NCBI GenBank assembly: GCA_964401295.1 | Contig: CAYNXX010000001.1 | Span: forward strand, 35,671 to 99,670 | Direction: 5' to 3' | Length of the DNA: 64,000 nucleotides | DNA from: an uncultured Candidatus Saccharibacteria bacterium | Lineage (GTDB): Bacteria; Patescibacteriota; Minisyncoccia; Minisyncoccales; CAYJUL01 | In this document: piece by piece, positions 34,474 to 54,426 of the stretch | Layout of the letters: the number at the start of each line of letters is the position of its first letter | Position numbering within the stretch: position 1 is the stretch's first letter | Notes under the pieces: generated by a model | What the model was told of the DNA's origin: nothing | Database searches by the model: none | The model's input: only the letters and a program-made list of their open reading frames with translations | Made by a program: the position numbers and the translations under genes

Positions 34474-35541
34474 TTATTGGCCTTTTGCAAAAAGCACTAT
34501 TTTAATTGATTTTAAAATAATCGATAGGTCCAGCAAAACCGACATGTTTTGGATATAATAGAGATCGTATTTTAATTTTTCTCTGGCATCCTCCACAGAG
34601 TCGCCATAAGGAAAATTCAGCTGCGCCCAGCCTAAAACTCCAGGCTGAGTAAGCAGTCTAAGTTTATAATGCGGTATTTCTTTCTCGAGCATGGCCGTGA
34701 ATTCGGGCCTTTCTGGTCTGGGCCCCACCAATGAGATGTCGCCTTTTAAAATATTTATGGCCTGCGGAAGCTCATCCAGATGCAATCTCCTCAAAATATA
34801 GCCAGCCACAGTAACTCTTTCGTCAATTTTGCCAGCCCAACGGGGTCCTTCTTTTTCCGCATCCTCTACCATCGTACGGAATTTATATAGCGCGAATATC
34901 TTTCCCCCTTTACCCAGTCTTTTTTGTGTATAGAAAATTTTTCCCGAAGAGGTAAATTTTATCAGAGAAGCCACAGGTATAAAAAACAGACCTAAAATAA
35001 TCAAACCGATGGCTCCAAAAATTAAATCAATCGTTCTTTTTGCCAAATATCCAGTTTTGTTTCTTTTTTTTGCAAATGATTCTAAAAATAGATCTTCCTG
35101 TAATTTTTCCAAATATACGATTTTAATTTCGCTGCCGTCTTTTATGGGAGAAACTATGAAAAGCGCAGAACGAAAAATAAGAATAAAAATAGTGAATATT
35201 GCCGTATAAAACAGCAAAATAGTTTTAGGCGCGATGCCAGCTGATGATTTAAAATAAAAATAAGCTATGCCGGAGATGAATATAGCAATCACCAAACCAA
35301 TAATATTTCTGGCGAAATCTTTATCTGCGCTTATGCGTGGTTCATAAAAATCAAATATAAAGAGGAACAAAATCCATAATGGCGCTAAAACTGAAAAATG
35401 ATACAATAATTGGTTAAATTCGGCTCCGCCCAAAAATTCAAAATTTCCATGTCTTATGGCAAGAGTTAAAAATAAAGATAAATAAATTAAAAAGATGTCC
35501 CCAGCAATCAAAGCCATCCAGAGGACATTTGAAATTTTCAT
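34474..35541 (-). CDS. polyprenyl-phosphate glycosyl-1-phosphate transferase (bacterial sugar transferase, WbaP-like)
   Basis: KRTIDLIFGAIGLIIL...YTQKRLGKGGKIFALYKFRTM...PGVLGWAQ. Start set at MKISNVLW (ATG 35539-35541). The ORF-track 5' extension overlaps the upstream gene. Confidence 0.85.
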   Translation of the reverse strand: MKISNVLWMALIAGDIFLIYLSLFLTLAIRHGNFEFLGGAEFNQLLYHFSVLAPLWILFLFIFDFYEPRISADKDFARNIIGLVIAIFISGIAYFYFKSSAGIAPKTILLFYTAIFTIFILIFRSALFIVSPIKDGSEIKIVYLEKLQEDLFLESFAKKRNKTGYLAKRTIDLIFGAIGLIILGLFFIPVASLIKFTSSGKIFYTQKRLGKGGKIFALYKFRTMVEDAEKEGPRWAGKIDERVTVAGYILRRLHLDELPQAINILKGDISLVGPRPERPEFTAMLEKEIPHYKLRLLTQPGVLGWAQLNFPYGDSVEDAREKLKYDLYYIQNMSVLLDLSIILKSIKIVLFAKGQ

Positions 35542-35548: not shown

Positions 35549-36517
35549 TTACTTAGAACTTCCCACTTGCTGGATGATCCAATTGTAAGTTTTTCCCAAT
35601 CCCTCTTCAAGAGACATTTTCGGTTCCCAACCCAAAACTTGTTTGCACAATGTATTGTCGGAATTTCTGCCGCGAACGCCCTGCGGTTTATCCAAAAGAT
35701 ATTTCTTGTGGATGGTTTTACCTGCATGATTTGCAATAATATCCGCCATTTCGTCTATAGTAATCAGCCGGTCTGAACCGATATTGAGCGGCTCTTTGAT
35801 TTCCGACTCCATCAACCTGTAAACACCTTCAACACAATCATCTATATAGCAAAAAGATCTGGTTTGCTTTCCGTCGCCCCAAATCTCAAGTTCGCCGCCA
35901 TCGGGCAAAAGGGCAATTTTGCGCGACAACGCAGCTGGCGCTTTTTCCCTACCTCCGTCATAAGTACCTTCAGGCCCATAAATATTATGAAACCTTGCGA
36001 TTCGCACTTCAAGATTGTAATCTCTGTTGTATTTCTGGTACATATGCTCAGAAAATAATTTTTCCCAGCCGTAACCGTCTTCCGGATCCGCGGGATAGGC
36101 ATCACTTTCTTTAAGCGCCGTTATTTGCGCATCTTTTTGCTTATATCCTGGATAAATGCAGGCTGAAGAAGAATAAAACAGGCGCTTAACTCCGGAAAGG
36201 CGCGAAGCTTCAGCTATATTTATATTAATGGTGGCATTATCCCTTACCACATCCGCTTTAACTGCGCTGATAAAACCGATTCCGCCCATGTTTGCGGCCA
36301 AAGTATACACTTTATCTATGCCATTGACCGCTTCCATGGCGTTTCTGAAATTGCGCAAATCCAAAATTAAAAACTCATCCGCTTCATCCTTGGGTGAATA
36401 TTCCGGATATTTAATATCTACGCCCCTAACCCAATAGCCATTGTTTTTGAGATATCGCACCAGGTGATGCCCGATAAATCCTCCGGCGCCGGTAACTAAA
36501 ATTTTTTCTTGCGGCAT
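35549..36517 (-). CDS. SDR NDP-sugar epimerase, GDP-mannose 3,5-epimerase-like
   Basis: VTGAGGFIGHHL Rossmann motif. AANMGGIGFI...NINIAEASRLSGVKRLFYSSSACIYP closely follows the GME pattern NMGGMGFI...SSACIYP as I recall it. Confidence 0.65.
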   Translation of the reverse strand: MPQEKILVTGAGGFIGHHLVRYLKNNGYWVRGVDIKYPEYSPKDEADEFLILDLRNFRNAMEAVNGIDKVYTLAANMGGIGFISAVKADVVRDNATININIAEASRLSGVKRLFYSSSACIYPGYKQKDAQITALKESDAYPADPEDGYGWEKLFSEHMYQKYNRDYNLEVRIARFHNIYGPEGTYDGGREKAPAALSRKIALLPDGGELEIWGDGKQTRSFCYIDDCVEGVYRLMESEIKEPLNIGSDRLITIDEMADIIANHAGKTIHKKYLLDKPQGVRGRNSDNTLCKQVLGWEPKMSLEEGLGKTYNWIIQQVGSSK

Positions 36518-36528
36518 AGATAAATAAT

Positions 36529-37140
36529 CTAAGAAACTTTTCCTTCTTTTTTAAGCCCCTCCCATTTATACTCTCTCTCTTTAAGAGCGTTCACCAATAA
36601 ATGCACCAAGACAATTTGCCAGCCTTCCGCATGGGGCGTAATTCGTTCTTCGTGGACGACAGGCACCAAAATACAGGCGTCAGCCATTTTTTTGGTCATA
36701 CCCCCATCTCGACTCACAATTCCCAAAATTTTTGCCCCAATTTCTTTGGCATGCTCCATCGCCAGCACAATATTTTTGGATGTATGCTCGGACCCGCCGC
36801 CAACCGAAAGAACGAAAACAGCATCTTTTTTGTTTAAACGCGAGCCCTTTAATGCGCGCACGAATGTGGATTCCCATCCATGATCATTGGTCAAAGCGGT
36901 CAACTGCGCAACGTGATCAAGCGGAGCATATGCCTCAATGTTGCACGTAAGACGAAAATCGCTTGCCGCATGCGAAGCGTTTGCAGCCGATCCTCCAACG
37001 CCAACGAAAAACAAACGTCCTCCTTCCTCACGAACAACCCGCAAAGCTTCAATGGTCTTTTGAATCTGCTCACGATCAATTGTCTGTGCAATCTGCGCAG
37101 ATTCCTTTAAATGGGTATTGATATATTCTTTATAATCCAT
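36529..37140 (-). CDS. gmhA: SIS-domain sedoheptulose-7-phosphate isomerase
   Basis: GRLFFVGVGGSAANASHAASDF and VFVLSVGGGSEHT are SIS/GmhA-type motifs. 203 aa. Confidence 0.75.
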   Translation of the reverse strand: MDYKEYINTHLKESAQIAQTIDREQIQKTIEALRVVREEGGRLFFVGVGGSAANASHAASDFRLTCNIEAYAPLDHVAQLTALTNDHGWESTFVRALKGSRLNKKDAVFVLSVGGGSEHTSKNIVLAMEHAKEIGAKILGIVSRDGGMTKKMADACILVPVVHEERITPHAEGWQIVLVHLLVNALKEREYKWEGLKKEGKVS

Positions 37141-37175
37141 GATGATTTTTAGAGATTGAAATTGATAATTGAAAA

Positions 37176-37895
37176 TTATAATTTATATCCGGCCAACTTT
37201 GCATCATTATAAAACATTCGTACCGTGTCAAGCGAAAGATCTGTAAGATCGCGTCCGAGCTGTTCTACATTTTTAAGCAAATCCGGAGTTACCGTAATGA
37301 TGTGACAACCCGATTCTTCGGCGTGAAAGATGTTTAAAAATTCGCGAGAGCTTGCCCATAGAAGTTCTGCGCCGTTAACCGACGAAACTAACTGGGCAGC
37401 TTCGCTCATTATAGGCAAAGGATTTATTCCAGTATTGGATATTCTGCCGGCAAAAACTGAAATTATACTGGGAACTCCTGGATTTAAGGCCGACAAAATG
37501 TGTTTTACCTGCTCTAAGGTTAAAATTGCGGTAATGTTCAGTTTAACTTTGGCCTCGGCCAAACGCTTTACTAAATCAAAAGACGATTCTCCTTTTGTAT
37601 TCGTTATCGGTATTTTCACGTAAATATTATCCGCCCATCCGGCTATTTTTTTTGCCTGACGTTCCATCTCGCCGAATTCATCGGAAAAAACCTCAAAAGA
37701 TATCGGTTTATCTTTGATCTCCGTCAAAAGTTCCTTCGCGAACTCTTCATAATCCGAAATACCGGCCTTTTTCATCAAAGTGGGATTGGTGGTAAATCCT
37801 TTGATGTACGGCTTCTTGTTTAATGCCAAAAAGCTAGCTTTGTCAGCTCCATCGGCAAAAATTTTCACCTTAAGATCTTCTATTTTCAAACTCAT
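37176..37895 (-). CDS. transaldolase / fructose-6-phosphate aldolase family protein
   Basis: KIFADGAD, GFTTNPTLM, and YVKIPIT (Schiff-base Lys region). 239 aa, the short Tal/FSA type. Confidence 0.8.
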   Translation of the reverse strand: MSLKIEDLKVKIFADGADKASFLALNKKPYIKGFTTNPTLMKKAGISDYEEFAKELLTEIKDKPISFEVFSDEFGEMERQAKKIAGWADNIYVKIPITNTKGESSFDLVKRLAEAKVKLNITAILTLEQVKHILSALNPGVPSIISVFAGRISNTGINPLPIMSEAAQLVSSVNGAELLWASSREFLNIFHAEESGCHIITVTPDLLKNVEQLGRDLTDLSLDTVRMFYNDAKLAGYKL

Positions 37896-37950
37896 ACGAA
37901 TTGCTAATCTTATGCCTAATCTAACCAGATTTAAAGGTATAAGTCAAGGC

Positions 37951-38670
37951 TTAGCCGTCTATTTGCGCACAATATTCTTCGGCATCTTTATATGATCCAA
38001 GCGTATCTATACCTTTAGAATAATCGTCGCATTCGTAGCCATAAAATTTTTCGCCACGCACAATAACATCAGGCAAAAGCTGGCTGCCGATTTCATAGTA
38101 TATATTTTCCGGCACGTATTGTAAAATTCTTTTTTTCAAAATGAATATGCCGCGCATTCCTTTATAATTTAGCGGCAATTCTTTATGTGGCTTGGCGTAA
38201 ATTTTAACAAAGCGAAGTTCGCTATCAACTTCAACTAGGTCTTTATCTCGCGGATTTGCCGTCTCGCCAATTCTTTGCATGCCTATAGCATCGGGCTTCG
38301 TTTTCCAGTATTCATAATATCTTGCGTAATCCATCAGGGAGAAAATGTCTCCATATATTACAAAAAATTCTTCATTCAATTTTGACTCAAAGCTTTTTAT
38401 TCCGCCGGCCGTGCCCAAAATTTCCGGTTCAAAACGATAATTTATTTTCACATCCAATTTTGATCCGTCGCCAAAATAATTTGTAATCGCGTCCGGCAAA
38501 TAATGCAGATTTAGAAAAAACTCGCCGACGCCGTATTTTTTGAACTGCAAAATATTTCGCTCCAAAAGCGGACGGCCCGCGATCGGAATCATAACCTTCG
38601 GAATATTATCGGTTATGGGGCGCAGACGTGTACCCAGGCCAGCCGATAAAATAACCGCTTGTTTTATCAT
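37951..38670 (-). CDS. hddC: heptose/mannose-1-phosphate guanylyltransferase-like nucleotidyltransferase
   Basis: AVILSAGLGTRLRPITDNIPKVMIPIAGRPLL. ATGA overlap with gmhB. Confidence 0.7.
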   Translation of the reverse strand: MIKQAVILSAGLGTRLRPITDNIPKVMIPIAGRPLLERNILQFKKYGVGEFFLNLHYLPDAITNYFGDGSKLDVKINYRFEPEILGTAGGIKSFESKLNEEFFVIYGDIFSLMDYARYYEYWKTKPDAIGMQRIGETANPRDKDLVEVDSELRFVKIYAKPHKELPLNYKGMRGIFILKKRILQYVPENIYYEIGSQLLPDVIVRGEKFYGYECDDYSKGIDTLGSYKDAEEYCAQIDG

Positions 38671-39236
38671 CGTTTTGCCTCTCGTTTAATTATTGACGCC
38701 GCTTCTTTTAAGTTGCGCGCGATAAAATCCGGCTTGCCGGCATGCTTTCCGTCGCGACCGGCAGATCCAGTTTTAACCAAAATCATTTTTATTTTCGCGC
38801 GGTTTCCCGCGGCAATATCCGCGGTTCTGTCGCCAACGATAAAACTTTTTTTAAGATCAATGTTGAATTTTTTTACGGCTTGAAGGATCATTCCGATATT
38901 TGGTTTTCTGCAGCGACACCGTATGCGGTATTTTGGTAATGTGGCTTCGGGATGATGCGGGCAAAAATAAACGGCGTCTATTTTTGCGCCTTTTTTTGCG
39001 AGCCGTTGCGCCAATAAAGCATGAATGGCATCAACTTCTTTTTTTGTTGCAAAACCCCGTGCCACAACCGGCTGATTTGTAACGACAATTATTAAAAATC
39101 CTAATTTATTAAGCGTTTTGACGGCCTCGGCCACTCCGGGAAAGAGTCTTACCCTTTCAAAGTTTTCTAATTTCGTATTGGAACTTTCAAGAATAAGCGT
39201 GCCGTCCCTGTCAAAAAAAACCGCCGGCTTTTTCAT
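38667..39236 (-). CDS. gmhB: D,D-heptose 1,7-bisphosphate phosphatase (HAD-IIIA)
   Basis: FFDRDGTL (DxDxT), VVTNQP, zinc site CPHHPE...CRCRKP, and GDRTADI. Start set at MKKPAVFFD (ATG 39234-39236), which forms an ATGA overlap with the upstream gene. Confidence 0.82.
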   Translation of the reverse strand: MKKPAVFFDRDGTLILESSNTKLENFERVRLFPGVAEAVKTLNKLGFLIIVVTNQPVVARGFATKKEVDAIHALLAQRLAKKGAKIDAVYFCPHHPEATLPKYRIRCRCRKPNIGMILQAVKKFNIDLKKSFIVGDRTADIAAGNRAKIKMILVKTGSAGRDGKHAGKPDFIARNLKEAASIIKREAKR

Positions 39237-40258
39237 AGCCCATCGCGAGTCGTCTTTTTTTCCGCCCAATAATAAACGCGGCGCAAACCCTCATCCAGGA
39301 CAGTTTCCGGCTGCCAGTCAAGAAGCATTTTTACCCTGCGCATGTTTGCGGTTCGCGAAATTGGCCCGACCGGTTTTTTTAAATCGTACTTCAGTTTGAT
39401 TTTTTTTCCTGAAATGGCGATAATTTTTTTGGCCAGCTCTCTGATTGTTGTGGGCTTTCCTGATCCAAGGTTAATAATCAACGGTGAATCGTTCAAAATG
39501 GCTTCAAGTCTTAACAAAGCCTCAGCGCAGTCGCTGACATAAATATAATCTCGGCTTTGCTTTCCTGATCCCCAAATAATAAAATCTTCTTTTGGGTACG
39601 CCAAAGATTTCTTTATGAATCTTGAAATCACGTGGGCTTTTTCGTCAAGCGGCTCATTTTCGCCGTATGCGCTGAAAATTCTAGCAATGCCGACTTTTAT
39701 TTTTTTATTCTGGCAAAGCTCAATCTCGGCCAAGATTTTTGCCAGGCCATAACCGCCGTCAGGATTTATATACATCTTAAACTGCCTTTTGGGATTGTTT
39801 TTAGTAAGCGGCGAAAAATCTTTTTCCGAAAAAACCGTGCCGTCAGCGTATTGTTTTTCCATATCGTAAACTGCCACGCTTGAAGCATAAATTAGTTTTG
39901 AAACTTCCTGTTCCTGACAAGCCCTAAAAACATTCGCATCGATAGCAAGATTGTTTTCCAGAACTCTTAACTCCGCGTTTTCTCTACCGTGAAGATATTG
40001 AAGCCCGCCGACCACTGCGGCAAGATGAAAAACGCTGCTGGCATTTTTAAAAATATTTTGTAGCGAGTTACAATCGGCCAGGTCAATTTTCTTGAAACTG
40101 AAATCATTACGCGTCAAACCAAGACCCAGCAAATTATCTATGCTTCCGGATGATAAATCATCCAAAATTAGAACTTCTCGTCCTTTTTTAATTAGTTTCT
40201 TTACAAGATGTGAACCGATAAATCCGGCCCCGCCGGTAACTATTGTAAATTTTTTCAT
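39233..40258 (-). CDS. SDR NDP-sugar epimerase/dehydratase/reductase
   Basis: VTGGAGFIGSHL. The Y-x-x-x-K region reads GGYGLAKILAE. 341 aa. Embedded in the heptose operon. Confidence 0.7.
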   Translation of the reverse strand: MKKFTIVTGGAGFIGSHLVKKLIKKGREVLILDDLSSGSIDNLLGLGLTRNDFSFKKIDLADCNSLQNIFKNASSVFHLAAVVGGLQYLHGRENAELRVLENNLAIDANVFRACQEQEVSKLIYASSVAVYDMEKQYADGTVFSEKDFSPLTKNNPKRQFKMYINPDGGYGLAKILAEIELCQNKKIKVGIARIFSAYGENEPLDEKAHVISRFIKKSLAYPKEDFIIWGSGKQSRDYIYVSDCAEALLRLEAILNDSPLIINLGSGKPTTIRELAKKIIAISGKKIKLKYDLKKPVGPISRTANMRRVKMLLDWQPETVLDEGLRRVYYWAEKKTTRDGL

Positions 40259-40259
40259 A

Positions 40260-41246
40260 TTAAAAGTTCATTAAAGTTTTTGAACCTTCGAAATCAAAAT
40301 GGTAGCGCATTTCTTCCAGGCCGAGATTCTTCATTTTTTTTCTAAACTGGTTATGGTTTTTTTCTATATAAAAAGTAAAAAATCCTCCGCCACCAGCTCC
40401 GGAAATTTTACCGCCCAAAGCGCCGGCTTCCTTGGCTTCTTCATAAATATTGTCAAAACGCGGATTTGTCATTTTTGCCGAAATGCGTTTTTTGTACTGC
40501 CAATGCTTGTCAAAAAGCAAACCTATGTCAGTCAAATTTCCGCTCTCGGCGGCTTCTAGAATTTTATAGCCGATGTCTTTTATATAATGCATGCTCTCAA
40601 TCACATCTTTTTTCTCGTCTTTGGCTCCCTGTGACTGTTCAGATAAAATCTCGTCTGCCGAGCGCGAGATTTGGGTATAAAACATCAAAAGATTAATATT
40701 CAATTCGTCTATGTTTTCCTGCGAGATTTTTGCGGCTCTTACTTTAACCTTGCCCTCTTTGTCTATGTCTAAAACCGTGGTGCCTCCGAAAGCCGCCATA
40801 TATTGATCCTGTTTGCCGATCGGTCTTTTTAAAATTTCTATTTCAAGATGGCAGGCCTGTTCCGCCAACTCCTCCAGCGAAACGTATTCCCTTTTTAAAA
40901 CGTGCAAGGCGTGGAGCAATCCCACAACATAGCAACTTGAAGATCCGAGGCCGGTTCCGGCCGGCACGTCGGCCAAAGAATCAATTTCTATGGCATTGTT
41001 TATGCCCATCACGCGCAGCGCCTCACGCGCCAAATCGTGCTTTAAGCCCTCAATGTTTTCCGTGATTTCGGTCTGGCTGTATTTCAGACGCACAAGCTTA
41101 TCAACAATTGGCCGGTTAACGCTTATGAACATATATTTGTCTATACCCGCGGAAAAAATAAAACCGCCGTATTTTGAATAATAGGCCGGGATATCGGTCC
41201 CCCCTCCGCCCAAAGTAACCCTGAATGGCGAACGCGTAATAATCAT
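40260..41246 (-). CDS. hddA: GHMP kinase, D-glycero-D-manno-heptose 7-phosphate kinase-like
   Basis: SPFRVTLGGGGTDIPAYY and the GHMP motif PAGTGLGSSS. 328 aa. Confidence 0.78.
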   Translation of the reverse strand: MIITRSPFRVTLGGGGTDIPAYYSKYGGFIFSAGIDKYMFISVNRPIVDKLVRLKYSQTEITENIEGLKHDLAREALRVMGINNAIEIDSLADVPAGTGLGSSSCYVVGLLHALHVLKREYVSLEELAEQACHLEIEILKRPIGKQDQYMAAFGGTTVLDIDKEGKVKVRAAKISQENIDELNINLLMFYTQISRSADEILSEQSQGAKDEKKDVIESMHYIKDIGYKILEAAESGNLTDIGLLFDKHWQYKKRISAKMTNPRFDNIYEEAKEAGALGGKISGAGGGGFFTFYIEKNHNQFRKKMKNLGLEEMRYHFDFEGSKTLMNF

Positions 41247-42178
41247 TTGATGTTTCCTTTTTGAATTTCTTTTTTTATGTAATCTATCATCTGTCTTAAG
41301 CCAGCATCAATATCGGTCTTCGGACGCCAACCGAGTTTTTTTGCCCTGCTTATGTCGGCAATGCTATCCATAACTTCGTCGCCCTCAAGCGCAGGCTTGA
41401 AAATAGGCTTAATATTTGTTTTTAGAATTTTTTGTATCTTGTCGTATATCTCAAGCACCGAATAGCTTTTCCCGCTGCCGAGATTAAAAACTTGGCCAAT
41501 AACGCGATCGTCCTTTAGGCACTGAAGATGAAAGTCATTTATATCGTCCACATAGATAAAATCCCGCCGCTGCTTGCCGGAACCATAAATAAATGGTCGC
41601 TTGCCGCGCAAAAGCTTAATGATAAATGCCGACATCACCGGCGGAATGGTACGTCGGTAATCTTGACGCGGACCGTAAACATTAAAATAACGAAGGCCAA
41701 CTACCGGAAGGCCAGACCATCTATAATACGCATTTGCGAACATATTATCCGCTACCTTGCTTAAAGCATAAAATCCTTCAGGCGCTATGGTATCCTCGCT
41801 GACTGGCATTTTTTTGATGCCGTCGTAGAGCGCCGCAGTTTCTGCGTATACGATTCTTTTCGCCTTAGCCCTACGGCTGGCTTCATAAACATTAACTGTA
41901 CCAGTAATGTTTATATCCGCGGTTTCCACCGGATCTTTCTGGCAATCAACAATGGTATTTTTGGCCGCAAGATGAAAAACCACATCGGTTCCGCGCAGCA
42001 AAGGATAAATCGCCTGCGAGCGTATATCGACTTTGCGAAATTTTATCCCTTTGGGTATTTGAGACTTTACGCCGTAGGCAAGATTGTCTACACCTATCAC
42101 TTTGTGCTTGGCGGCTATAAGACGCTGGCCCAAGTTGCTGCCGATAAATCCAGCCACGCCAGTAATTATTATTCTCAT
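41243..42178 (-). CDS. SDR NDP-sugar epimerase (GalE-like)
   Basis: ITGVAGFIGSNL and YALSKVADN (YxxxK). Start set at MRIIITG (ATG 42176-42178). ATGA overlap with hddA at the 3' end. Confidence 0.75.
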   Translation of the reverse strand: MRIIITGVAGFIGSNLGQRLIAAKHKVIGVDNLAYGVKSQIPKGIKFRKVDIRSQAIYPLLRGTDVVFHLAAKNTIVDCQKDPVETADINITGTVNVYEASRRAKAKRIVYAETAALYDGIKKMPVSEDTIAPEGFYALSKVADNMFANAYYRWSGLPVVGLRYFNVYGPRQDYRRTIPPVMSAFIIKLLRGKRPFIYGSGKQRRDFIYVDDINDFHLQCLKDDRVIGQVFNLGSGKSYSVLEIYDKIQKILKTNIKPIFKPALEGDEVMDSIADISRAKKLGWRPKTDIDAGLRQMIDYIKKEIQKGNIK

Positions 42179-42265: not shown

Positions 42266-43291
42266 TTACAGATTTTTATTTTTTTTTACGGCGCTCCAAT
42301 ACGTTCCCGACTTGGGCTTATAAGTCATTCTGTTTAAAAATCCGCTGGCCCAAGCAAAATGCATACAAGGAAATACTAACATAAGCGCGAAGAAAAGCAT
42401 AATGTTTTTTTGACGAAACGCAAGCGATAAACTTACAATAATATCGGTGGCAAGATATGCGCCAACCAGTAGAACAAGGACATATAGAAAGATGTAATTT
42501 ATAAAGCCCAATAGGATAAGAATTGGCAAGGACAGCAAGAGAGTCGGCGGAATTATCTGACGAAATTTAAGCGCCTTATGCTTCAAGAAAAATGCCGCCC
42601 TAGCGCTGCCATATCTTAAATACTGCTCCCACAAATTTGAAAAACTATCGCGCGGCAAATGGTAAGCAATTATATCTGGATTTAAATATACTTTTCCTCC
42701 GGCTTTTTTTATCCTCCAGTTAAAATCTGCGTCCTCGGCAATAACAAAAGCTTTTTCGTCAAACATTCCGACCTTATCAAAAATTTCCTTTCTGAAGCAT
42801 CCCAGATAAACGCTGTCGGCAGACCCCCTCTTTCTACTTACCCGGAACGGTGCATTGCCTGCGCCGAAAGGATGCGTCATCGCAAGGCCTACCGCTCTTT
42901 GGACAAGGCCGGCTTGCGCCGGAATAAATGGCGCTTCCATTCCGCCGACGTTATCAGCTCTGGTTAAAAGCAGCGTTTGGACGCACTTTTGAACGTAATC
43001 TTTCGGAACAAATGTCCTCGCATCCACACGCATTATGATTTCTCCTTGTGCGTTTTTTATTCCGATATTTAAACCTGGGTAAATATAGCGTTTCGGATTT
43101 TCAAGTATGCGCACCGGAAACTTCTGGGCTATTTCTCGCGTCCGATCGCTACTCATGCCATCAATCAAAATAACCTCAATTTTATCTTTTGGATATGTTT
43201 GCGCGAAGATATTTTCTAAAGATTGCTGTATATATTTTTCTTCATTGCGCGTCGGCAAGATAATGGAAACCGATGGAGATTCCTTCTTCAT
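42266..43291 (-). CDS. GT2 glycosyltransferase with a C-terminal multi-TM region
   Basis: VSIILPTRNEEKYI, LIDGMSSD and IAEDADF, plus three or four C-terminal helices. Confidence 0.8.
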   Translation of the reverse strand: MKKESPSVSIILPTRNEEKYIQQSLENIFAQTYPKDKIEVILIDGMSSDRTREIAQKFPVRILENPKRYIYPGLNIGIKNAQGEIIMRVDARTFVPKDYVQKCVQTLLLTRADNVGGMEAPFIPAQAGLVQRAVGLAMTHPFGAGNAPFRVSRKRGSADSVYLGCFRKEIFDKVGMFDEKAFVIAEDADFNWRIKKAGGKVYLNPDIIAYHLPRDSFSNLWEQYLRYGSARAAFFLKHKALKFRQIIPPTLLLSLPILILLGFINYIFLYVLVLLVGAYLATDIIVSLSLAFRQKNIMLFFALMLVFPCMHFAWASGFLNRMTYKPKSGTYWSAVKKNKNL

Positions 43292-44292
43292 GGATTTAAT
43301 TTAATGAAATTACGCCGCTGCCATTGCCGCCATAAACCGGTAAGTAATTTTTTGCGCGGCGCAGGCGGAATGGCGCCAGCCACGCCGCCGACAACCGCAA
43401 AAATAAAACGCATCCAAAAAGTCCTTATTGATTTTATGGCGCCGGAAAATCCGGCCATATTGTTGTTTAAAAGGTAAGCTAGCGCGGCTTTCATTTTTAA
43501 ATTATCGAGAATTTTTGAGGCGTCGCACTGATTTCTTTTTTCCTGCGGCATTTTGGAGAATAATTTTTCAAACATATCGAGCGTATATTTTTTTAATACC
43601 GCCTGAACTTCCATCGTGGTGTTGCTTTCTTCGCGAATTTCCACTTTCACTAAATCCTCATCTATATGTCCGAATTTATATCCGACCCCTGCTAACCGCA
43701 GCCACAAATCCCATTCTTCCGGCCAATATCTTGTTTCGTTGAATCCACCGATTTTTTCCAGAGCCTCACGATGGAACATCGCTGTGTTGAGATTAATCAG
43801 AGGCGAACGCAACAATTTATCAAAAATATCTCCAGAAAAATGACTGCATTTCTTTTTAAACAGAGCGCCGGGATTTGCCGCGTAAAAATGCAGGGTATGG
43901 CAATAAACTATTTTATAATCTGGATTTTTCTCTAAAAACTCTGTCTGCCTTTCAACTTTTTGCGGCAAATAAATGTCATCGGCGTCAAGAAAAGTGATAT
44001 ATTTGCCGCGGCTTTCCTTAATTCCACGATTCCTAGCCACTCCCTGACCTTTATTTTCCTGCCGAAAATAATACATTCGCTGATCGGCAAAACCGCGCGC
44101 GACGCCAACGGTTGAATCAAAGGACCCATCGTCGATAACAATAATTTCAATATTCTCATAAGTCTGTGTAATGGCGCTTTGGATCGCCCGGCCAAGGTAT
44201 TTTTCTGCATTGTATGCCGGAATAATTATAGAAATGAGGGGTTTGCTAGTCATAAAATATATTCTTTTAATTTTACTCCGGCCAGACCCCAA
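43288..44292 (-). CDS. GT2 glycosyltransferase
   Basis: ISIIIPAYNAEKYL, VIDDGSFD, FLDADD. Confidence 0.8.
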   Translation of the reverse strand: MGSGRSKIKRIYFMTSKPLISIIIPAYNAEKYLGRAIQSAITQTYENIEIIVIDDGSFDSTVGVARGFADQRMYYFRQENKGQGVARNRGIKESRGKYITFLDADDIYLPQKVERQTEFLEKNPDYKIVYCHTLHFYAANPGALFKKKCSHFSGDIFDKLLRSPLINLNTAMFHREALEKIGGFNETRYWPEEWDLWLRLAGVGYKFGHIDEDLVKVEIREESNTTMEVQAVLKKYTLDMFEKLFSKMPQEKRNQCDASKILDNLKMKAALAYLLNNNMAGFSGAIKSIRTFWMRFIFAVVGGVAGAIPPAPRKKLLTGLWRQWQRRNFIKLNP

Positions 44293-45203
44293 TTTTCATC
44301 ATTAAAAATAATTGGCTTTTTTTCTTTGAGCATTCTTTTTCGTGCAATGCGGTATTCATCTATTGCTGCGGTATCGGCCTCTCTTCTACCCCAATGCTTT
44401 TGATGATAAATTCTTTTGCCTCCGCCGGAAATTATTCTTTGTTTTATGCCTGCCGCAAGCGCCATATAACAAAGATAACCGTCAATAAAATAATTATTCT
44501 CTTTTTCGGGATAACCGCGTAGGCTATACCAATTATTTTTATGCATCAGGAAAAAGTCACCAGCAACCTTGGCAAATGGATAATCAAATGGGGAATGTGT
44601 AATTTTCAGCGCTATATATCGGAAAAAATCTTTTGCAAATTCTATGGGATTAAAATGCGCGCCGTGAGAATGCCAATAACCATGCGTAATAATGACATTC
44701 TTTTTGCATTGCTCCAAAATATTGCCTAAGTCATTGATAAGGCTGAGCGATTTTATATCCCATCTTGCAATACGATAAAAATGTTCGGAAGATAATTTAG
44801 CTCGGGCAAGCCATTTAATAAGCTCATCGCTGAATATTATATCGGGATTTGTAACCAGTATGTATTCTCCGCTTGCGCGGCGCAGGCCAACGTTTTTTCC
44901 CCTGTATTCAAAAAGGGGTAATTTACCAGCCCCGGGGAATTTATTGTGGGTTTCCGGCGGTACTTCTATAATTTTAACGCGGCAGTATTTTAATTTTTCC
45001 GGCCAGGCAAGGACATTTTTTAAGGCGGGCTTTTCCGACGGAGGATTCCATTCAACAAAAATAACCTCGGAATTAAGTCCATATTTCTCGCAGGAAATTA
45101 AGATGCTGTCTATAGACGCCTGCGCCCTGGAAATAAAATCGCCGCCGTAATTATCATTTCGGCCGACCATTACAAAAGTTATATATGGTTTTTCCGATAT
45201 CAT
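44250..45203 (-). CDS. putative GT-A-fold glycosyltransferase (family uncertain)
   Basis: ITFVMVGRNDNYGGDF and ILVTNPDIIF resemble a GT-A Rossmann strand plus an acidic motif. There is no clean DxD, so this is a weak call. Confidence 0.4.
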   Translation of the reverse strand: MISEKPYITFVMVGRNDNYGGDFISRAQASIDSILISCEKYGLNSEVIFVEWNPPSEKPALKNVLAWPEKLKYCRVKIIEVPPETHNKFPGAGKLPLFEYRGKNVGLRRASGEYILVTNPDIIFSDELIKWLARAKLSSEHFYRIARWDIKSLSLINDLGNILEQCKKNVIITHGYWHSHGAHFNPIEFAKDFFRYIALKITHSPFDYPFAKVAGDFFLMHKNNWYSLRGYPEKENNYFIDGYLCYMALAAGIKQRIISGGGKRIYHQKHWGRREADTAAIDEYRIARKRMLKEKKPIIFNDENWGLAGVKLKEYIL

Positions 45204-46330
45204 TTCCCTTCTATTATTTTAACGGAGTCTATCCATATTTTCATATTGCCTGCCATAAGTTTAAAATAATTTTTTGCTTCATTGGTCCAAAGGTGACCAG
45301 AAAATTTATCTATATCTTTTTCCATAAAATCTGCTAGCGCTAAATAAGTTTCTGTATAACTTCCTCCTTCAAGTTTCAATTCTTTAAGCCATGGCAAGAT
45401 ATCTTCCAATAACCACACGCAGGCTAATTCCTTTGTTACGTCTTTAAATGGGTCGTGGGCGTTTCTTTCGTGCCTGACAATCGGCGAACCAAACCTTATT
45501 GCGTGGCCCAAGTGTTTGGCGCATTTTTCAACAAAATAACCGCTGAAAATATCGCCGTATCTGTCAATTTCAAAACCGCCGATTGGATAACCCATGCGGA
45601 AAAAGTAGTAAGCTGCAAGCGCATCTTTGTAGATGGCGGTATTTTGCGTGTTAATCGGCGCCCAGGTATTTTCATGCAAAAAAATAGATTCGCCCTTAAA
45701 AGAAAGAGACTTTGGATTTTGAACCAAAATAGTCAAGGCGTCAACGTCCGGATGCCCCACCCACAAACCCTGATTTATATGCACTGCGCCGTCGCCTGAC
45801 GCTTCGGAAGATTTCCATTCTTTTCGTCTGGCAAGATAAGGAAAACCCCTCGGATATATAACATCCGGTTCCGTATCCAACAGATCGCATACGTTCAACC
45901 ATCCACTTTCACAGCTGATTGATTGCGCTTCGGCTGTTTTCCCAACAATCATATGCTCCTTGAAAAAAGAATCCGATCCGATCGGATAATTATCATCGTC
46001 TATTGAAACGATAATATCGCAGCCTTTTTCCAGCGCCATAAGATAGCCGATATTTCTCCTGTTGTCTGAATTATATGGGATTATATCTTTTATTTTACCT
46101 AGCTTTGACAAAAAAATTTCCTGATCTTCCAAAGACGGACAAAATATATTTATGCCATTGCTTTTGATATCATCGCATTTTTTATAAAGAGCCTTCGGCG
46201 TTTTTTTATCTGGAATAACAATAAAAATCGTTCCTTCCCTGATCCTCTCTTCCATAAGCTTTCCGGCGTAATCATCTAGAAAATTGCCCTCGTTGATGGT
46301 AGTGCAGACTAAAGCAATTTTATGATTCAT
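45200..46330 (-). CDS. reversibly-glycosylated-polypeptide (RGP/GT75, UDP-arabinopyranose mutase)-like protein
   Basis: IALVCTTINEGNFL, NIGYLMALEKGCDIIVSIDDDNYP, YPRGFPYLARR and NQGLWVGHPDVDALT run parallel to the plant RGP strings IVIPTIRNLDFL, CFGYMVSKKKYIFTIDDDC, VRGYPFSLR and SHGLWLNIPDYDAPT as I remember them. Confidence 0.55.
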   Translation of the reverse strand: MNHKIALVCTTINEGNFLDDYAGKLMEERIREGTIFIVIPDKKTPKALYKKCDDIKSNGINIFCPSLEDQEIFLSKLGKIKDIIPYNSDNRRNIGYLMALEKGCDIIVSIDDDNYPIGSDSFFKEHMIVGKTAEAQSISCESGWLNVCDLLDTEPDVIYPRGFPYLARRKEWKSSEASGDGAVHINQGLWVGHPDVDALTILVQNPKSLSFKGESIFLHENTWAPINTQNTAIYKDALAAYYFFRMGYPIGGFEIDRYGDIFSGYFVEKCAKHLGHAIRFGSPIVRHERNAHDPFKDVTKELACVWLLEDILPWLKELKLEGGSYTETYLALADFMEKDIDKFSGHLWTNEAKNYFKLMAGNMKIWIDSVKIIEGK

Positions 46331-49730: not shown

Positions 49731-49880
49731 AAAATTGATTTGATTCTTGTATTCTCGGCTTTCTTATTTTCCATCAAAATCGAACAAGAAAAATTCATAC
49801 AAAAATATCGCCTCGATTTTCTTTGCAAATTTTTACGCGATGTAGACATTGGCACAACCATAGAAACTAGCTCAAGTCTA

Positions 49881-50636: not shown

Positions 50637-50667
50637 TTAATAAGTTTATTAAATAAACTGTAAAAAT

Positions 50668-51552: not shown

Positions 51553-51560
51553 TTTATATC

Positions 51561-51590
51561 ACAAAATTCGGAGGCGGGCAAACGCTCCGA
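51561..51590 (-). terminator. possible intrinsic terminator after the 4,6-dehydratase gene
   Basis: On the minus strand: TCGGAG-CGTTTGCCCGC-CTCCGA followed by ATTTTGTG. Confidence 0.4.
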
Positions 51591-51613
51591 GAAACGATTT
51601 TTGCGCCTTGAAT

Positions 51614-52612: not shown

Positions 52613-52622
52613 ATTGACTATA

Positions 52623-54425: not shown

Positions 54426-54426
54426 T

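What the first reader, a model, noticed from the sequence alone, without database searches (positions are those of the whole stretch)
35549..42178. Complete GDP-D-glycero-alpha-D-manno-heptose operon with a dedicated transaldolase and three SDR tailoring enzymes
**The pathway genes.** Eight tightly packed genes, four junctions being ATGA overlaps, encode:
- GmhA (SIS isomerase)
- HddA (GHMP heptose-7-P kinase)
- GmhB (HAD bisphosphate phosphatase with a CxH...CxC zinc site)
- HddC (nucleotidyltransferase)

This is the established four-step route from sedoheptulose-7-P to GDP-heptose, known from Gram-positive S-layer glycans and Campylobacter capsules.

**The extra genes.** A short transaldolase/FSA-type enzyme sits inside the operon. 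It can make the precursor sedoheptulose-7-P, which is notable if the organism lacks a full pentose-phosphate pathway. Three SDRs are interleaved: one GDP-mannose-3,5-epimerase-like and two GalE/dehydratase-like. This is the enzyme set used elsewhere to turn GDP-heptose into 6-deoxy or epimerised heptoses.

Heptose is best known from LPS cores. In a probable monoderm, ultra-small bacterium it points to a heptose-containing S-layer glycan, capsule or wall polymer.
Basis: partly seen in the sequence, partly recalled or inferred. Interest (0 to 1): 0.6.

Follow-up and report, generated by a model that had tools for sequence, protein, structure and literature searches.

The report
Transaldolase-linked heptose/octose nucleotide-sugar cassette
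Eight real, tightly packed genes in a candidate-phyla-radiation bacterium encode a self-contained route to a nucleotide-activated seven- or eight-carbon sugar for a surface glycan, and they belong to a widespread, uncharacterised cassette whose built-in transaldolase resembles the lincomycin GDP-octose pathway as much as the textbook GDP-heptose pathway.

Summary
The eight minus-strand genes exist as described: SDR, GHMP kinase, SDR, HAD-IIIA phosphatase with a zinc site, short nucleotidyltransferase, transaldolase, SIS isomerase and a GDP-mannose-3,5-epimerase homologue. Only three junctions, not four, are ATGA overlaps.

However, all four "heptose" enzymes score below NCBIfam's curated cut-offs. 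The SIS protein carries Asp where GmhA has its catalytic Glu. None of the three SDRs has a dehydratase motif.

The operon belongs to a cassette found across many phyla (kinase 53-79% identical). A transaldolase lies within 10 kb in 21 of 24 well-flanked metagenomic loci and in all 5 plasmid records that carry the cassette-type SIS. Three sister HddA-like loci lack it.

The only characterised pathway built this way is lincomycin's LmbR/N/P/K/O route to GDP-octose. I could not fetch Lmb sequences, so whether the sugar has eight carbons (about 0.45) or seven (about 0.38) is unresolved. I call it a new variant of a known kind, of moderate to high interest.

The parts
41243..42178 (-). SDR_A: extended SDR of the GalE/WbpP 4-epimerase type (311 aa). 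It is the conserved SDR of the cassette.
   Evidence: Pfam Epimerase E 1.9e-51. Best PDB matches are UDP-Glc/GlcNAc 4-epimerases: 4zrm at 6e-48, plus WbpP and WbgU. It is 59-69% identical to the SDR next to the kinase in Brocadiia, Kryptonia, GCA_016222845 and Wildermuthbacteria loci. No dehydratase triad.
40260..41246 (-). GHMP sugar-phosphate 1-kinase of the HddA/WcbL/LmbP type (328 aa).
   Evidence: PF00288 and PF08544. PDB matches: WcbL 4usm 3.6e-41, 3k85 1.5e-40, 4n3o 8.6e-37. WcbL's essential residues are conserved. NCBIfam HddA scores 161 bits against a cut-off of 600. It is 70-79% identical to proteins from many phyla.
39233..40258 (-). SDR_B: extended SDR, a distant GME/GalE relative that lacks the GME catalytic Cys (341 aa). 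Likely an epimerase or 4-ketoreductase. Specific to the CPR variant.
   Evidence: Pfam Epimerase 3.5e-40. Best PDB match is GME at 1.5e-27. The only orthologue is in Wildermuthbacteria locus L008, at 51% identity. The motif is SSVAVYD rather than SSACIYP.
38667..39236 (-). HAD-IIIA phosphatase of the GmhB/LmbK type with a Cys/His zinc site (189 aa). Removes the terminal phosphate of the sugar bisphosphate.
   Evidence: TIGR01656 scores 141.6 against a cut-off of 84, and TIGR01662 scores 114 against 44.6. PRK08942 (158 vs 178) and TIGR00213 (137.5 vs 149.6) fall just below their cut-offs. DRDGT and CPHH...CRC motifs are present.
37951..38670 (-). Short sugar-1-phosphate nucleotidyltransferase without a beta-helix domain (239 aa). 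The nucleotide is probably GTP.
   Evidence: PF00483 6.8e-23. NCBIfam best hits are Arch_glmU and ManC-Rv at 110 bits; HddC scores 75 bits against a cut-off of 300, over the N-terminal part only. PDB matches: 8x7s 1e-29, MurU 5e-20, HddC 5xhw 1e-17. GDP is inferred only from the adjacent GME homologue.
37176..37895 (-). Short transaldolase of the Staphylococcus/Coxiella type (239 aa). An integral member of the cassette.
   Evidence: TIGR02134 scores 321.9 bits against a cut-off of 282. Catalytic Asp, Glu, Lys and the transaldolase-type Phe are present. A TAL gene lies within 10 kb of the kinase in 21/24 well-flanked loci, and is adjacent to SIS in 22/34 loci that have both.
36529..37140 (-). 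SIS-fold ketose-phosphate/aldose-phosphate isomerase, a divergent GmhA/LmbN-like clade (203 aa).
   Evidence: PF13580 1.1e-9. All 13 PDB hits are phosphoheptose isomerases, the best at 4e-15. TIGR00441 scores 67 bits against a cut-off of 209. The clade signature is His61 kept, Glu65 to Asp, Gln172 to Glu, His180 kept, and a loop insertion, seen in 34 cassette SIS proteins.
35549..36517 (-). SDR_C: GDP-sugar 3,5-epimerase, an orthologue-level match to plant GDP-mannose 3,5-epimerase (322 aa).
   Evidence: 2c59 E 1e-103, about 50% identity over the full length. SSACIYP Cys, GYGxEK Tyr/Lys and GGREKAPAA Lys are conserved. It sits in the same position after SIS in L008 (80% identity) and L039 (66%).
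34474..35541 (-). Initiating polyprenyl-phosphate sugar transferase (Bac_transf), 8 nt downstream of SDR_C. It links the cassette to lipid-carrier glycan assembly.
   Evidence: PF02397 9.2e-61. The start codon at 35541 was read from sequence. Same gene order in L008.
42266..61135 (-). The rest of the co-directional glycan cluster, as context. It holds GT2 x5, an RGP-like protein, three FkbM and three class-I methyltransferases, an RmlB-like 4,6-dehydratase (51614-52612), an SDR (54427-55362), a Wzx flippase (56341-57792), a GT4 and a UDP-glucose dehydrogenase.
   Evidence: Pfam and NCBIfam scans.

Best explanation
**Layer 1 (confidence about 0.9).** The eight genes are a self-contained cassette that turns central sugar phosphates into a nucleotide-activated higher-carbon aldose. 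That sugar then enters a Wzx-dependent, heavily methylated surface glycan. The steps are:
1. The transaldolase makes a ketose phosphate.
2. The SIS isomerase converts it to the aldose phosphate.
3. The GHMP kinase phosphorylates C1, giving the alpha anomer by analogy with HddA and LmbP.
4. The zinc-containing HAD phosphatase removes the terminal phosphate.
5. The short nucleotidyltransferase makes the NDP-sugar, probably the GDP-sugar.
6. SDR_A (4-epimerase-like), SDR_B and the GME-type 3,5-epimerase SDR_C change the stereochemistry.

**Layer 2 (the commitment, confidence about 0.45).** The transaldolase is the committed first enzyme and works like LmbR. It moves a C3 unit from fructose-6-P or sedoheptulose-7-P onto ribose-5-P to give octulose-8-P. 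The product would then be a GDP-octose that is epimerised, not GDP-D-glycero-D-manno-heptose.

**Shown:** gene identities, family placements, cassette conservation and the clade-specific link to the transaldolase.

**Inferred:** the substrates, the nucleotide, the anomer and the number of carbons.
For: 1. The cassette recurs across phyla. The kinase is 70-79% identical in Wildermuth-/Jorgensenbacteria, Poribacteria, Brocadiia, Kryptonia, Aminicenantes and Deltaproteobacteria. Housekeeping GatA is only 66-71% identical to its nearest Patescibacteria relatives.

2. Four genome contexts keep SDR_A, nucleotidyltransferase, kinase, HAD, SIS and TAL together.

3. Among 80 metagenomic loci, 24 have at least 4 kb upstream and 7 kb downstream of the kinase. 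Of these, 21 carry a TAL gene within about 10 kb. TAL is adjacent to SIS in 22 of the 34 loci that have both.

4. Two different TAL lineages fill this slot: the Staphylococcus type in 3 loci and the FSA/TalC type in 18. Both carry the transaldolase signature (Glu and Phe), not the aldolase one.

5. The TAL link is clade-specific. The cassette-type SIS occurs in only 5 of 72,556 plasmid records. These are Lawsonia intracellularis plasmid 3 (three strains) and two Rhizobium replicons; the cassette kinase is on all five and a transaldolase was seen in the three examined. Three loci with sister HddA-like kinases (36-40% identical) have no TAL.

6. Lawsonia and GCA_016222845 carry both kinds of gene set.

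7. The SIS clade replaces GmhA's catalytic Glu65 with Asp and Gln172 with Glu. It also has an insertion in the SxSGxS loop.

8. The lincomycin/celesticetin pathway has the same architecture and similar protein sizes: R transaldolase 222 aa, N isomerase 202, P kinase 323, K phosphatase 185, O guanylyltransferase 232, M SDR epimerase 325.

9. The common form of the cassette also carries UDPG-dehydrogenase-like and Gfo/Idh/MocA genes, the families of LmbL and LmbZ.

10. LmbR uses F6P or S7P as donor and R5P as acceptor to make octulose-8-P. Ordinary transaldolases can also do this.
Against: - No Lmb or Ccb sequence could be compared, so the similarity to lincomycin's pathway is architectural only.
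- CcbP, CcbN and CcbO were reported to be at most 37-39% identical to any non-lincosamide protein. They therefore need not belong to this clade.
- The nearest characterised relatives available here are all heptose enzymes.
- The window's transaldolase passes the cut-off of a family (TIGR02134) annotated as ordinary pentose-phosphate transaldolases.
- In organisms that run the non-oxidative pathway in reverse, transaldolase is the enzyme that makes sedoheptulose-7-P. A supply role is therefore plausible.
- A GME-type epimerase fits a manno-configured GDP-sugar such as GDP-heptose, whereas LmbN gives a gluco-octose.
- To my knowledge, linear octoses have not been reported in bacterial polysaccharides.
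- The window variant lacks the LmbL- and LmbZ-like genes.
Confidence: 0.45

Rival explanations
1. [quoted passage not shown] The transaldolase only secures the precursor sedoheptulose-7-P (F6P + E4P -> S7P + G3P), which makes the cassette portable between hosts. The three SDRs then epimerise the GDP-heptose, with the GME homologue giving an L-galacto- or L-gulo-heptose.
For: - All four core enzymes have heptose enzymes as their nearest characterised relatives, and the kinase keeps WcbL's heptose- and ATP-binding residues.
- The HAD protein has the GmhB-type zinc site.
- The GME homologue is about 50% identical to an enzyme that acts on a manno-configured GDP-sugar.
- The transaldolase passes the TIGR02134 cut-off as a regular transaldolase.
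- Heptoses are common in glycans; linear octoses are not (own knowledge).
Against: - All four proteins score below the curated cut-offs.
- The catalytic Glu of GmhA is replaced by Asp throughout the clade.
- HddC is only the fourth-ranked family for the nucleotidyltransferase.
- The characterised GDP-heptose clusters that I know of carry no transaldolase, and neither do three sister HddA-like loci examined here. A pure supply role does not explain why the transaldolase is tied to one SIS/kinase clade across hosts that mostly have their own pentose-phosphate pathway.
- In hosts with transketolase, S7P is already available.
- Two organisms carry both this cassette and a transaldolase-free set.
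Confidence: 0.38
2. The cassette makes a heptose from sedoheptulose-7-P, but not the manno isomer. The divergent SIS isomerase would set a different C2/C3 stereochemistry, as HygP does in hygromycin B biosynthesis. The product would be a GDP- or other NDP-heptose of gluco or altro type that is then epimerised.
For: - The SIS clade has altered catalytic residues and an altered loop and fails the GmhA equivalog cut-off.
- The nucleotidyltransferase is not specifically HddC-like.
- That SIS isomerases in natural-product heptose pathways give other stereoisomers is my own knowledge (Tang et al., PNAS 2018) and was not checked here.
Against: - It does not explain the clade-specific transaldolase any better than the plain heptose model does.
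- Nothing here is direct evidence for the stereochemistry.
Confidence: 0.1
3. The block is not one pathway. The transaldolase would be the genome's housekeeping pentose-phosphate enzyme that happens to sit here. The GME homologue would act on GDP-mannose made elsewhere, for example by the second nucleotidyltransferase at 62921-63673, to give GDP-L-galactose or GDP-L-gulose for the same glycan.
For: - A second short nucleotidyltransferase whose best NCBIfam match is mannose-1-P guanylyltransferase lies at 62921-63673.
- The transaldolase and SIS genes are separated from their neighbours by spacers of 55, 35 and 11 nt rather than overlaps.
Against: - Transaldolase and SIS travel together with the kinase in many phyla and on plasmids.
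- The GME homologue follows SIS in all three loci where it occurs: the window, L008 and L039.
- No phosphomannomutase or PMI was seen in the window.
Confidence: 0.05

Closest known systems
[quoted passage not shown]
   Same: - Same four enzyme folds in the same logical order: SIS isomerase, GHMP 1-kinase, HAD-IIIA zinc phosphatase and short nucleotidyltransferase.
- The kinase's best solved relatives are WcbL, 3k85 and 4n3o, and WcbL's essential residues are kept.
- The product feeds a surface polysaccharide.
   Different: - All four proteins fall below NCBIfam's curated cut-offs.
- The isomerase has Asp instead of the catalytic Glu65, plus a loop insertion.
- The nucleotidyltransferase is no closer to HddC than to ManC, MurU or a UDP-Glc pyrophosphorylase.
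- An integral transaldolase is present, which known heptose clusters lack (own knowledge).
- The tailoring enzymes are epimerase-type SDRs, including a GME homologue. They are not the GMD-like 4,6-dehydratase, cupin epimerases and reductases used in Campylobacter.
[quoted passage not shown]
   Same: - It is the only characterised pathway in which a short transaldolase sits with a SIS isomerase, GHMP kinase, HAD phosphatase, short nucleotidyltransferase and SDR epimerase.
- Protein sizes match within about 20 residues.
- The common form of the cassette in other phyla also has UDPG-dehydrogenase-like and Gfo/Idh/MocA genes, like LmbL and LmbZ.
   Different: - The setting here is a polysaccharide cluster, not an antibiotic cluster.
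- There is no LmbS aminotransferase. The common form has an adh_short reductase instead, and the window variant has SDR_B plus a GME homologue in place of L and Z.
- No sequence comparison with Lmb/Ccb proteins was possible here.
- Reported Ccb-to-outsider identities are only 33-49%.
- The window's transaldolase is of the Staphylococcus type. CcbR's closest relative is a Cellulomonas short transaldolase.
GDP-mannose 3,5-epimerase (GME; Arabidopsis 2c59)
   Same: SDR_C aligns over its full length at about 50% identity. The catalytic Cys, Tyr-x3-Lys and second Lys are conserved.
   Different: - It is bacterial (CPR) and sits at the end of a higher-sugar cassette.
- Its substrate is presumably the cassette's GDP-heptose or GDP-octose rather than GDP-mannose. 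This is an inference from gene position in three loci.

Membership tests
GmhA (sedoheptulose-7-P isomerase, TIGR00441 equivalog) | Score at or above the curated equivalog cut-off | tested here: not met
   67.3 bits against a cut-off of 209.45. The cassette SIS of L006 scores 46 bits.
GmhA (sedoheptulose-7-P isomerase, TIGR00441 equivalog) | Catalytic Glu65 and His180, plus His61 and Gln172 of the metal/active site (E. coli numbering) | tested here: not met
   His61 and His180 are kept. Glu65 is Asp (at least 90% of 34 cassette SIS proteins) and Gln172 is Glu.
GmhA (sedoheptulose-7-P isomerase, TIGR00441 equivalog) | SIS fold closest to GmhA rather than to KpsF/GutQ arabinose-5-P isomerase | tested here: met
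   All 13 PDB matches are phosphoheptose isomerases, and no KpsF/GutQ appears. NCBIfam lists only gmhA and MurQ-type models.
HddA (D-glycero-D-manno-heptose-7-P 1-kinase) | GHMP-kinase fold, not the ribokinase-type HldA/HldE fold | tested here: met
   PF00288 and PF08544.
HddA (D-glycero-D-manno-heptose-7-P 1-kinase) | Nearest characterised or solved relatives are heptose-7-P kinases, and WcbL's essential residues are present | tested here: met
   4usm 3.6e-41, 3k85 1.5e-40 and 4n3o 8.6e-37, against fucokinase 5.5e-15 and galactokinase 6.5e-9. R13, D22, SSS118-120, Q162 and D163 are conserved.
HddA (D-glycero-D-manno-heptose-7-P 1-kinase) | NCBIfam NF049969 equivalog cut-off | tested here: not met
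   161.4 bits against a cut-off of 600. The paralogous kinase in L006 scores much the same, 157 bits, so the model does not separate the clades.
GmhB (heptose-1,7-bisphosphate 7-phosphatase) | HAD-IIIA core with the DxDGT nucleophile motif and a Cys/His zinc site | tested here: met
   TIGR01656 scores 141.6 against 84, and TIGR01662 scores 114 against 44.6. DRDGT and CPHH...CRC motifs are in the translation.
GmhB (heptose-1,7-bisphosphate 7-phosphatase) | Curated GmhB cut-offs (PRK08942, TIGR00213, and NF050049 for the alpha-specific type) | tested here: not met
   158.4 vs 178, 137.5 vs 149.6 and 105.5 vs 250 bits. The first two are near misses.
HddC (heptose-1-P guanylyltransferase) | NF049965 cut-off, and HddC as the best-matching nucleotidyltransferase family | tested here: not met
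   75 bits against a cut-off of 300, covering only residues 3-114; ranked fourth. In the PDB, 8x7s (1e-29) and MurU (5e-20) outrank HddC 5xhw (1e-17).
Transaldolase, Staphylococcus/Coxiella type (TIGR02134) | Curated cut-off, plus the catalytic Asp, Glu and Schiff-base Lys, and Phe rather than the Tyr of FSA | tested here: met
   321.9 bits against a cut-off of 281.95. Motifs FADGA, SFEV, VKIP and SVFAGR are present. The assignment of residue roles is my own knowledge.
GDP-mannose 3,5-epimerase (GME) | Full-length similarity, plus catalytic Cys145, Tyr174, Lys178 and Lys217 | tested here: met
   E 1e-103 to 2c59, about 50% identity. SSACIYP, GYGWEK and GGREKAPAA motifs are present. The substrate was not tested.
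NDP-heptose/hexose 4,6-dehydratase (DmhA/GMD/RmlB), needed for 6-deoxyheptose | Thr-Asp/Glu-Glu catalytic motif preceding Tyr-x3-Lys | tested here: not met
   SDR_A has ETAALYD, SDR_B has SSVAVYD and SDR_C has SSACIYP. GMD (TIGR01472) scores at most 32 bits. An RmlB-like SDR does exist elsewhere in the cluster at 51614-52612.
Lincosamide GDP-octose pathway (LmbR/N/P/K/O/M) | Co-located transaldolase, SIS isomerase, GHMP kinase, HAD phosphatase, short nucleotidyltransferase and SDR epimerase | tested here: met
   Window gene content compared with the Lmb/Ccb tables.
Lincosamide GDP-octose pathway (LmbR/N/P/K/O/M) | Sequence orthology to the Lmb/Ccb proteins | not testable with these tools
   The S. 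lincolnensis locus was not retrievable. Two primer-derived patterns in genome contigs found nothing relevant. A peptide-tag query found no word match. The Liu-lab papers are not held.
Lincosamide GDP-octose pathway (LmbR/N/P/K/O/M) | Transaldolase uses ribose-5-P as acceptor, and the product is a C8 sugar nucleotide | not testable with these tools
   This needs enzymology or glycan analysis.

The most novel reading that the evidence does not exclude
This operon would be one member of a very widespread bacterial cassette that builds GDP-octoses (C8 sugars) for cell-surface glycans, using a dedicated transaldolase on ribose-5-P. The cassette has thousands of homologues and occurs in CPR bacteria, Planctomycetota, Acidobacteriota-like lineages, Desulfovibrionaceae and Rhizobium. 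It would be the primary-metabolism counterpart, and the likely evolutionary source, of the lincomycin octose pathway. The CPR variant would add a GME-type 3,5-epimerase and so produce an L-configured octose.
Probability: 0.45. Interest if true: 0.8.

Novelty: new variant of a known kind. Interest (0 to 1): 0.6.

Why it matters
Automatic annotation labels these genes as galactokinase, heptose kinase, SIS protein and transaldolase. A curator would file the locus as an ordinary GDP-heptose operon.

The comparative evidence shows instead a distinct, strongly conserved and horizontally mobile cassette whose product has never been determined. It occurs in many uncultured phyla and in a few cultured bacteria: Lawsonia intracellularis, a pig pathogen, and Rhizobium jaguaris.

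If the product is a C8 sugar, linear octoses would be a common but overlooked building block of bacterial surface glycans. The origin of lincomycin's sugar pathway would also be explained.

If the product is a heptose, the cassette would still define a new GmhA/HddA clade with a built-in precursor supply. In CPR bacteria it would also have an unusual GME-type epimerase acting on a higher sugar.

Either way, five soluble enzymes and commercially available substrates are enough to test the question directly.

Tried and rejected
**Fetching the S. lincolnensis lmb locus for a direct comparison.** I searched genome contigs with two exact patterns taken from published REDIRECT and expression primers. 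One search gave no hits and one search gave two unrelated MAG contigs.

**Pulling LmbN out of the protein database.** I built a synthetic query from primer-encoded peptide tags. It was too short at 39 aa, and at 42 aa it shared no words with any candidate.

**Reading the primary literature.** Sasaki 2012, Lin 2014 and Wang 2020 are not held.

**Literature searches** for a transaldolase linked to HddA/GmhA/HddC, for octose in polysaccharides, for octulose-8-P outside lincosamides, and for heptose in CPR bacteria. None turned up a description of this cassette.

**Using NCBIfam's HddA model to separate the two kinase paralogues in L006.** It scores both about equally (157 and 164 bits), so it is uninformative.

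**Looking for the two Streptomyces plasmid hits to the kinase.** They never appeared in the listed rows. I abandoned this because they are unlikely to be characterised clusters.

**Testing for GT9 heptosyltransferase or DegT aminotransferase near the cassette.** GT9 occurs in 1 locus and DegT in 2, so neither is enriched.

**Promoter and terminator scan.** Counts are at background level, so it says nothing about operon boundaries.

**Rejected readings.**
- KpsF/GutQ-type isomerase: no such hits.
- Galactokinase or mevalonate kinase: far weaker matches than to the heptose kinases.
- Fructose-6-P aldolase rather than transaldolase: the protein carries the Glu and Phe signature of a transaldolase.
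- A 6-deoxyheptose product from these eight genes: there is no dehydratase motif.

Full report
**1. What is in the sequence**

Between 35549 and 42178 there are eight co-directional minus-strand ORFs.

| Gene | Coordinates | Length |
|---|---|---|
| SDR_A | 41243-42178 | 311 aa |
| GHMP kinase | 40260-41246 | 328 aa |
| SDR_B | 39233-40258 | 341 aa |
| HAD-IIIA phosphatase | 38667-39236 | 189 aa |
| Short nucleotidyltransferase | 37951-38670 | 239 aa |
| Transaldolase | 37176-37895 | 239 aa |
| SIS protein | 36529-37140 | 203 aa |
| SDR_C | 35549-36517 | 322 aa |

- Pfam and NCBIfam confirm every superfamily assignment.
- Reading the junctions directly shows three ATGA overlaps: SDR_A/kinase, SDR_B/HAD and HAD/nucleotidyltransferase. 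The other junctions are spacers of 1, 55, 35 and 11 nt.
- The block is part of a longer co-directional glycan cluster from about 34.4 to 61 kb. That cluster contains:
  - an initiating Bac_transf transferase 8 nt downstream of SDR_C;
  - five GT2 genes and a GT4;
  - an RGP-like protein;
  - three FkbM and three class-I methyltransferases;
  - an RmlB-like dehydratase, another SDR and a UDP-glucose dehydrogenase;
  - a Wzx flippase.
- The rest of the window is housekeeping.
- GatA places the organism in Patescibacteria/Parcubacteria. It is 66-71% identical to Parcubacteria, Staskawicz-, Nealson- and Pacebacteria proteins.

**2.

*Kinase.*
- It has the GHMP fold, not the ribokinase fold of HldE.
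- Its best solved relatives are the heptose-7-P kinases WcbL (3.6e-41), 3k85 and 4n3o. Fucokinase (5.5e-15) and galactokinase (6.5e-9) are far behind.
- The residues whose mutation kills WcbL are R13, D22, S118-120, Q162 and D163 (PMC4691232). All are conserved.

*SIS protein.* It matches only phosphoheptose isomerases in the PDB (best 4e-15) and shows no KpsF/GutQ signal.

Membership in the named families is nevertheless weak:

| Family | Score (bits) | Curated cut-off |
|---|---|---|
| GmhA | 67 | 209 |
| HddA | 161 | 600 |
| GmhB | 158 | 178 |
| HddC | 75 (N-terminal part only, ranked fourth) | 300 |

- In the PDB the nucleotidyltransferase is closer to a UDP-glucose pyrophosphorylase (8x7s, 1e-29) and to MurU (5e-20) than to HddC (5xhw, 1e-17).
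- Only the transaldolase passes its curated cut-off (TIGR02134, 322 vs 282 bits). SDR_C is a clear family member by its near-full-length match to plant GME (E 1e-103; next subsection).

**3. The SDRs**

*SDR_C.*
- It is about 50% identical to Arabidopsis GDP-mannose 3,5-epimerase over its full length (E 1e-103).
- It keeps the catalytic Cys (SSACIYP), the Tyr-x3-Lys pair and the second Lys (GGREKAPAA).

*SDR_A.* It resembles the UDP-hexose and UDP-HexNAc 4-epimerases 4zrm, WbpP and WbgU.

*SDR_B.* It is a distant GME/GalE relative that lacks the GME Cys.

None of the three has the Thr-Asp/Glu-Glu motif of 4,6-dehydratases (sequences). These eight genes can therefore epimerise a sugar, and perhaps reduce it, but cannot make it 6-deoxy.

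**4. The decisive comparative result**

*Conservation of the kinase.*
- It is 70-79% identical to more than a hundred proteins from unrelated phyla: Wildermuth- and Jorgensenbacteria, Poribacteria, Brocadiia, Kryptonia, Aminicenantes and Deltaproteobacteria.
- 7995 hits have E <= 1e-20.
- This exceeds the conservation of housekeeping GatA within the organism's own superphylum.

*Four genome contexts.* Brocadiia, Kryptonia, GCA_016222845 and Wildermuthbacteria all keep SDR_A, nucleotidyltransferase, kinase, HAD, SIS and transaldolase together. Identities to the window proteins are 59-69% for SDR_A, 45-86% for SIS, 31-77% for TAL, 35-68% for HAD and 32-74% for the nucleotidyltransferase.

*Metagenome scan.* It returned 80 loci with kinases 53-75% identical. 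Twenty-four of them have at least 4 kb upstream and 7 kb downstream of the kinase. Gene content in those 24:

| Gene family | Loci with it (of 24) |
|---|---|
| adh_short | 22 |
| Transaldolase | 21 |
| Gfo/Idh/MocA | 21 |
| SIS | 18 |
| SDR_A | 17 |
| Nucleotidyltransferase | 17 |
| HAD | 16 |
| UDPG-dehydrogenase-like | 13 |

- TAL is directly adjacent to SIS in 22 of the 34 loci that have both.
- Two different transaldolase lineages occupy this slot. The FSA/TalC type is found in 18 loci and the Staphylococcus type, as in the window, in 3.
- Both lineages have the Glu/Phe transaldolase signature rather than the Gln/Tyr aldolase signature.

*Clade specificity.*
- Among 72,556 plasmids, the cassette-type SIS occurs in only five records. 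Three are Lawsonia intracellularis plasmid 3 from three strains; the other two are Rhizobium jaguaris pRCCGE525c and Rhizobium sp. CB3060.
- All five also carry the cassette kinase. The transaldolase was confirmed in the three examined: Lawsonia PHE/MN1-00 plasmid 3, R. jaguaris and CB3060. The dehydrogenase-like, adh_short and Gfo genes were confirmed in the first two.
- Three loci with sister HddA-like kinases (36-40% identical) carry nucleotidyltransferase-HAD fusions or other partners but no transaldolase. They are R. leguminosarum, Lawsonia plasmid 1 and Solidesulfovibrio magneticus.
- Lawsonia and GCA_016222845 carry both kinds of gene set.

*SIS signature.* The cassette SIS proteins (n = 34) share a signature that departs from GmhA:
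- His61 and His180 are kept.
- The catalytic Glu65 is Asp.
- Gln172 is Glu.
- The SxSGxS loop carries an insertion. In GmhA, as far as I know, this loop binds the substrate phosphate.

**5. What this means**

The transaldolase is not an accessory explained by a poor pentose-phosphate pathway in CPR bacteria. It is a hallmark of one SIS/kinase clade wherever that clade occurs.

The only characterised pathway with this architecture is the lincosamide sugar pathway:
- LmbR is a transaldolase that uses F6P or S7P as C3 donor and ribose-5-P as acceptor, giving D-glycero-D-altro-octulose-8-P.
- LmbM (an SDR epimerase), LmbL (nucleotide-sugar-dehydrogenase-like), LmbZ (Gfo-like) and LmbS then act on that sugar.
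- Sources: PMC4351081, PMC12945683 and PMC5854111.
- Protein sizes match. The common form of the cassette even contains LmbL- and LmbZ-family genes, with an adh_short reductase where lincomycin has the transaminase.

The window and its Wildermuthbacteria relative L008 are a rarer variant. In them SDR_B and the GME homologue replace the dehydrogenase-like, adh_short and Gfo genes. L039 has both sets.

**6. Limits**

- I could not obtain any Lmb or Ccb sequence. The link to lincomycin is therefore architectural, not phylogenetic.
- Published Ccb-to-outsider identities (33-49%) neither prove nor exclude descent from this cassette.
- The heptose reading remains live:
  - Every available characterised relative is a heptose enzyme.
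  - The window's transaldolase belongs to a family annotated as regular transaldolases.
  - Transaldolase does produce S7P when the non-oxidative pathway runs in reverse.
  - A GME-type enzyme fits a manno-configured GDP-sugar.
  - Linear octoses are not known from polysaccharides.
- My estimates: about 0.9 that this is one pathway to an NDP-activated higher sugar. Within that, about 0.45 for a C8 (LmbR-like) product, about 0.38 for GDP-D-glycero-D-manno-heptose with a supply transaldolase, about 0.1 for another heptose isomer, and about 0.05 for unrelated neighbouring genes.

**7. Novelty and verdict**

- No paper in the held library describes a transaldolase-containing HddA/GmhA cassette, octoses in polysaccharides by this route, or heptose in CPR bacteria.
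- Public annotation calls these genes galactokinase, heptose kinase, SIS protein and transaldolase.
- The locus is best described as a new variant of a known kind: NDP-higher-sugar biosynthesis of the HddA/LmbP type.
- The open question is sharp and cheap to test, because it needs only a five-enzyme reconstitution.
- Interest: 0.6.

Noticed in passing
window 40260-41246; P0002-P0120: The cassette kinase is 70-79% identical to proteins from unrelated phyla. The same organism's housekeeping GatA is only 66-71% identical to its closest Patescibacteria relatives. This points to strong constraint combined with horizontal spread of the cassette.
   Followed up: partly
L006/L007 (GCA_016222845 and GCA_016213825) 1-3854 and 9029-17945: One locus carries two HddA-like gene sets side by side. 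The first is transaldolase-free: a nucleotidyltransferase-HAD fusion, a 371-aa SDR, a kinase 38% identical to the window's, and a truncated 137-aa SIS. The second is the full transaldolase cassette.
   Followed up: partly
L093 (Lawsonia intracellularis plasmid 3, NC_008014 about 14.5-23 kb) and L095 (plasmid 1, NC_008012): This cultured pig pathogen carries the full transaldolase cassette on plasmid 3, next to rfbC, ABC-transporter and GT2 genes. It also has a separate HddA-like kinase with an HAD fusion, but no transaldolase, on plasmid 1. I am not aware of any determined glycan structure for it.
   Followed up: partly
L092 (Rhizobium jaguaris pRCCGE525c, NZ_CP032695, 966533-987507): The complete cassette lies in a stretch with no annotation in PLSDB: UDPG-dehydrogenase-like, adh_short, Gfo, kinase, nucleotidyltransferase, SIS, HAD and a Staphylococcus-type transaldolase 62% identical to the window's. 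This is a tractable organism for genetics.
   Followed up: partly
window 62921-63673 and 51614-52612: There is a second short nucleotidyltransferase. Its best NCBIfam match is mannose-1-P guanylyltransferase, and it is 28% identical to the operon's enzyme. The same cluster also has an RmlB-like 4,6-dehydratase. The glycan therefore probably also contains a 6-deoxyhexose made by a separate branch.
   Followed up: partly
window 45200-46330: A protein of the reversibly glycosylated polypeptide (RGP) family (PF03214, E 4e-14) sits inside the glycan cluster. In plants this family includes UDP-arabinopyranose mutases. It is unusual in bacteria and hints at a furanose sugar.
   Followed up: no
window 47770-48678, 49881-50636, 55376-56287, 53550-54425, 58999-59817: Three FkbM-family and at least two class-I SAM methyltransferases lie in one glycan cluster. 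This suggests a heavily O-methylated polysaccharide.
   Followed up: no
L008/L009 (Wildermuthbacteria GCA_001824925 and GCA_001823375) 2109-9958: In the closest relative, a block of other genes is inserted between SDR_A and the kinase. It holds a PEP mutase fused to a cytidylyltransferase, a phosphonopyruvate decarboxylase fused to an Fe-ADH, a glycerophosphotransferase-like gene and two sulfatase-family (LTA-synthase-like) genes. This suggests a phosphonate-decorated version of the same glycan.
   Followed up: no
window 7865-9004 and 14390-15397: There are two MreB/Mbl paralogues within 7 kb. One (379 aa) matches the model in two stretches, which suggests an insertion.
   Followed up: no
window 32697-34448, 44250-45203, 46320-47813: Three sizeable ORFs in or beside the glycan cluster (583, 317 and 497 aa) match nothing in Pfam or NCBIfam. 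The 497-aa ORF could be the missing Wzy-type polymerase.
   Followed up: no
L002/L003 (Brocadiia) 172-1215 and 6745-8244; L095 1-3327: Radical-SAM genes, including a B12-binding type, recur next to cassette or HddA-like loci in Brocadiia, Lawsonia and S. magneticus. They may carry out C-methylation or other radical tailoring of the higher sugar.
   Followed up: no
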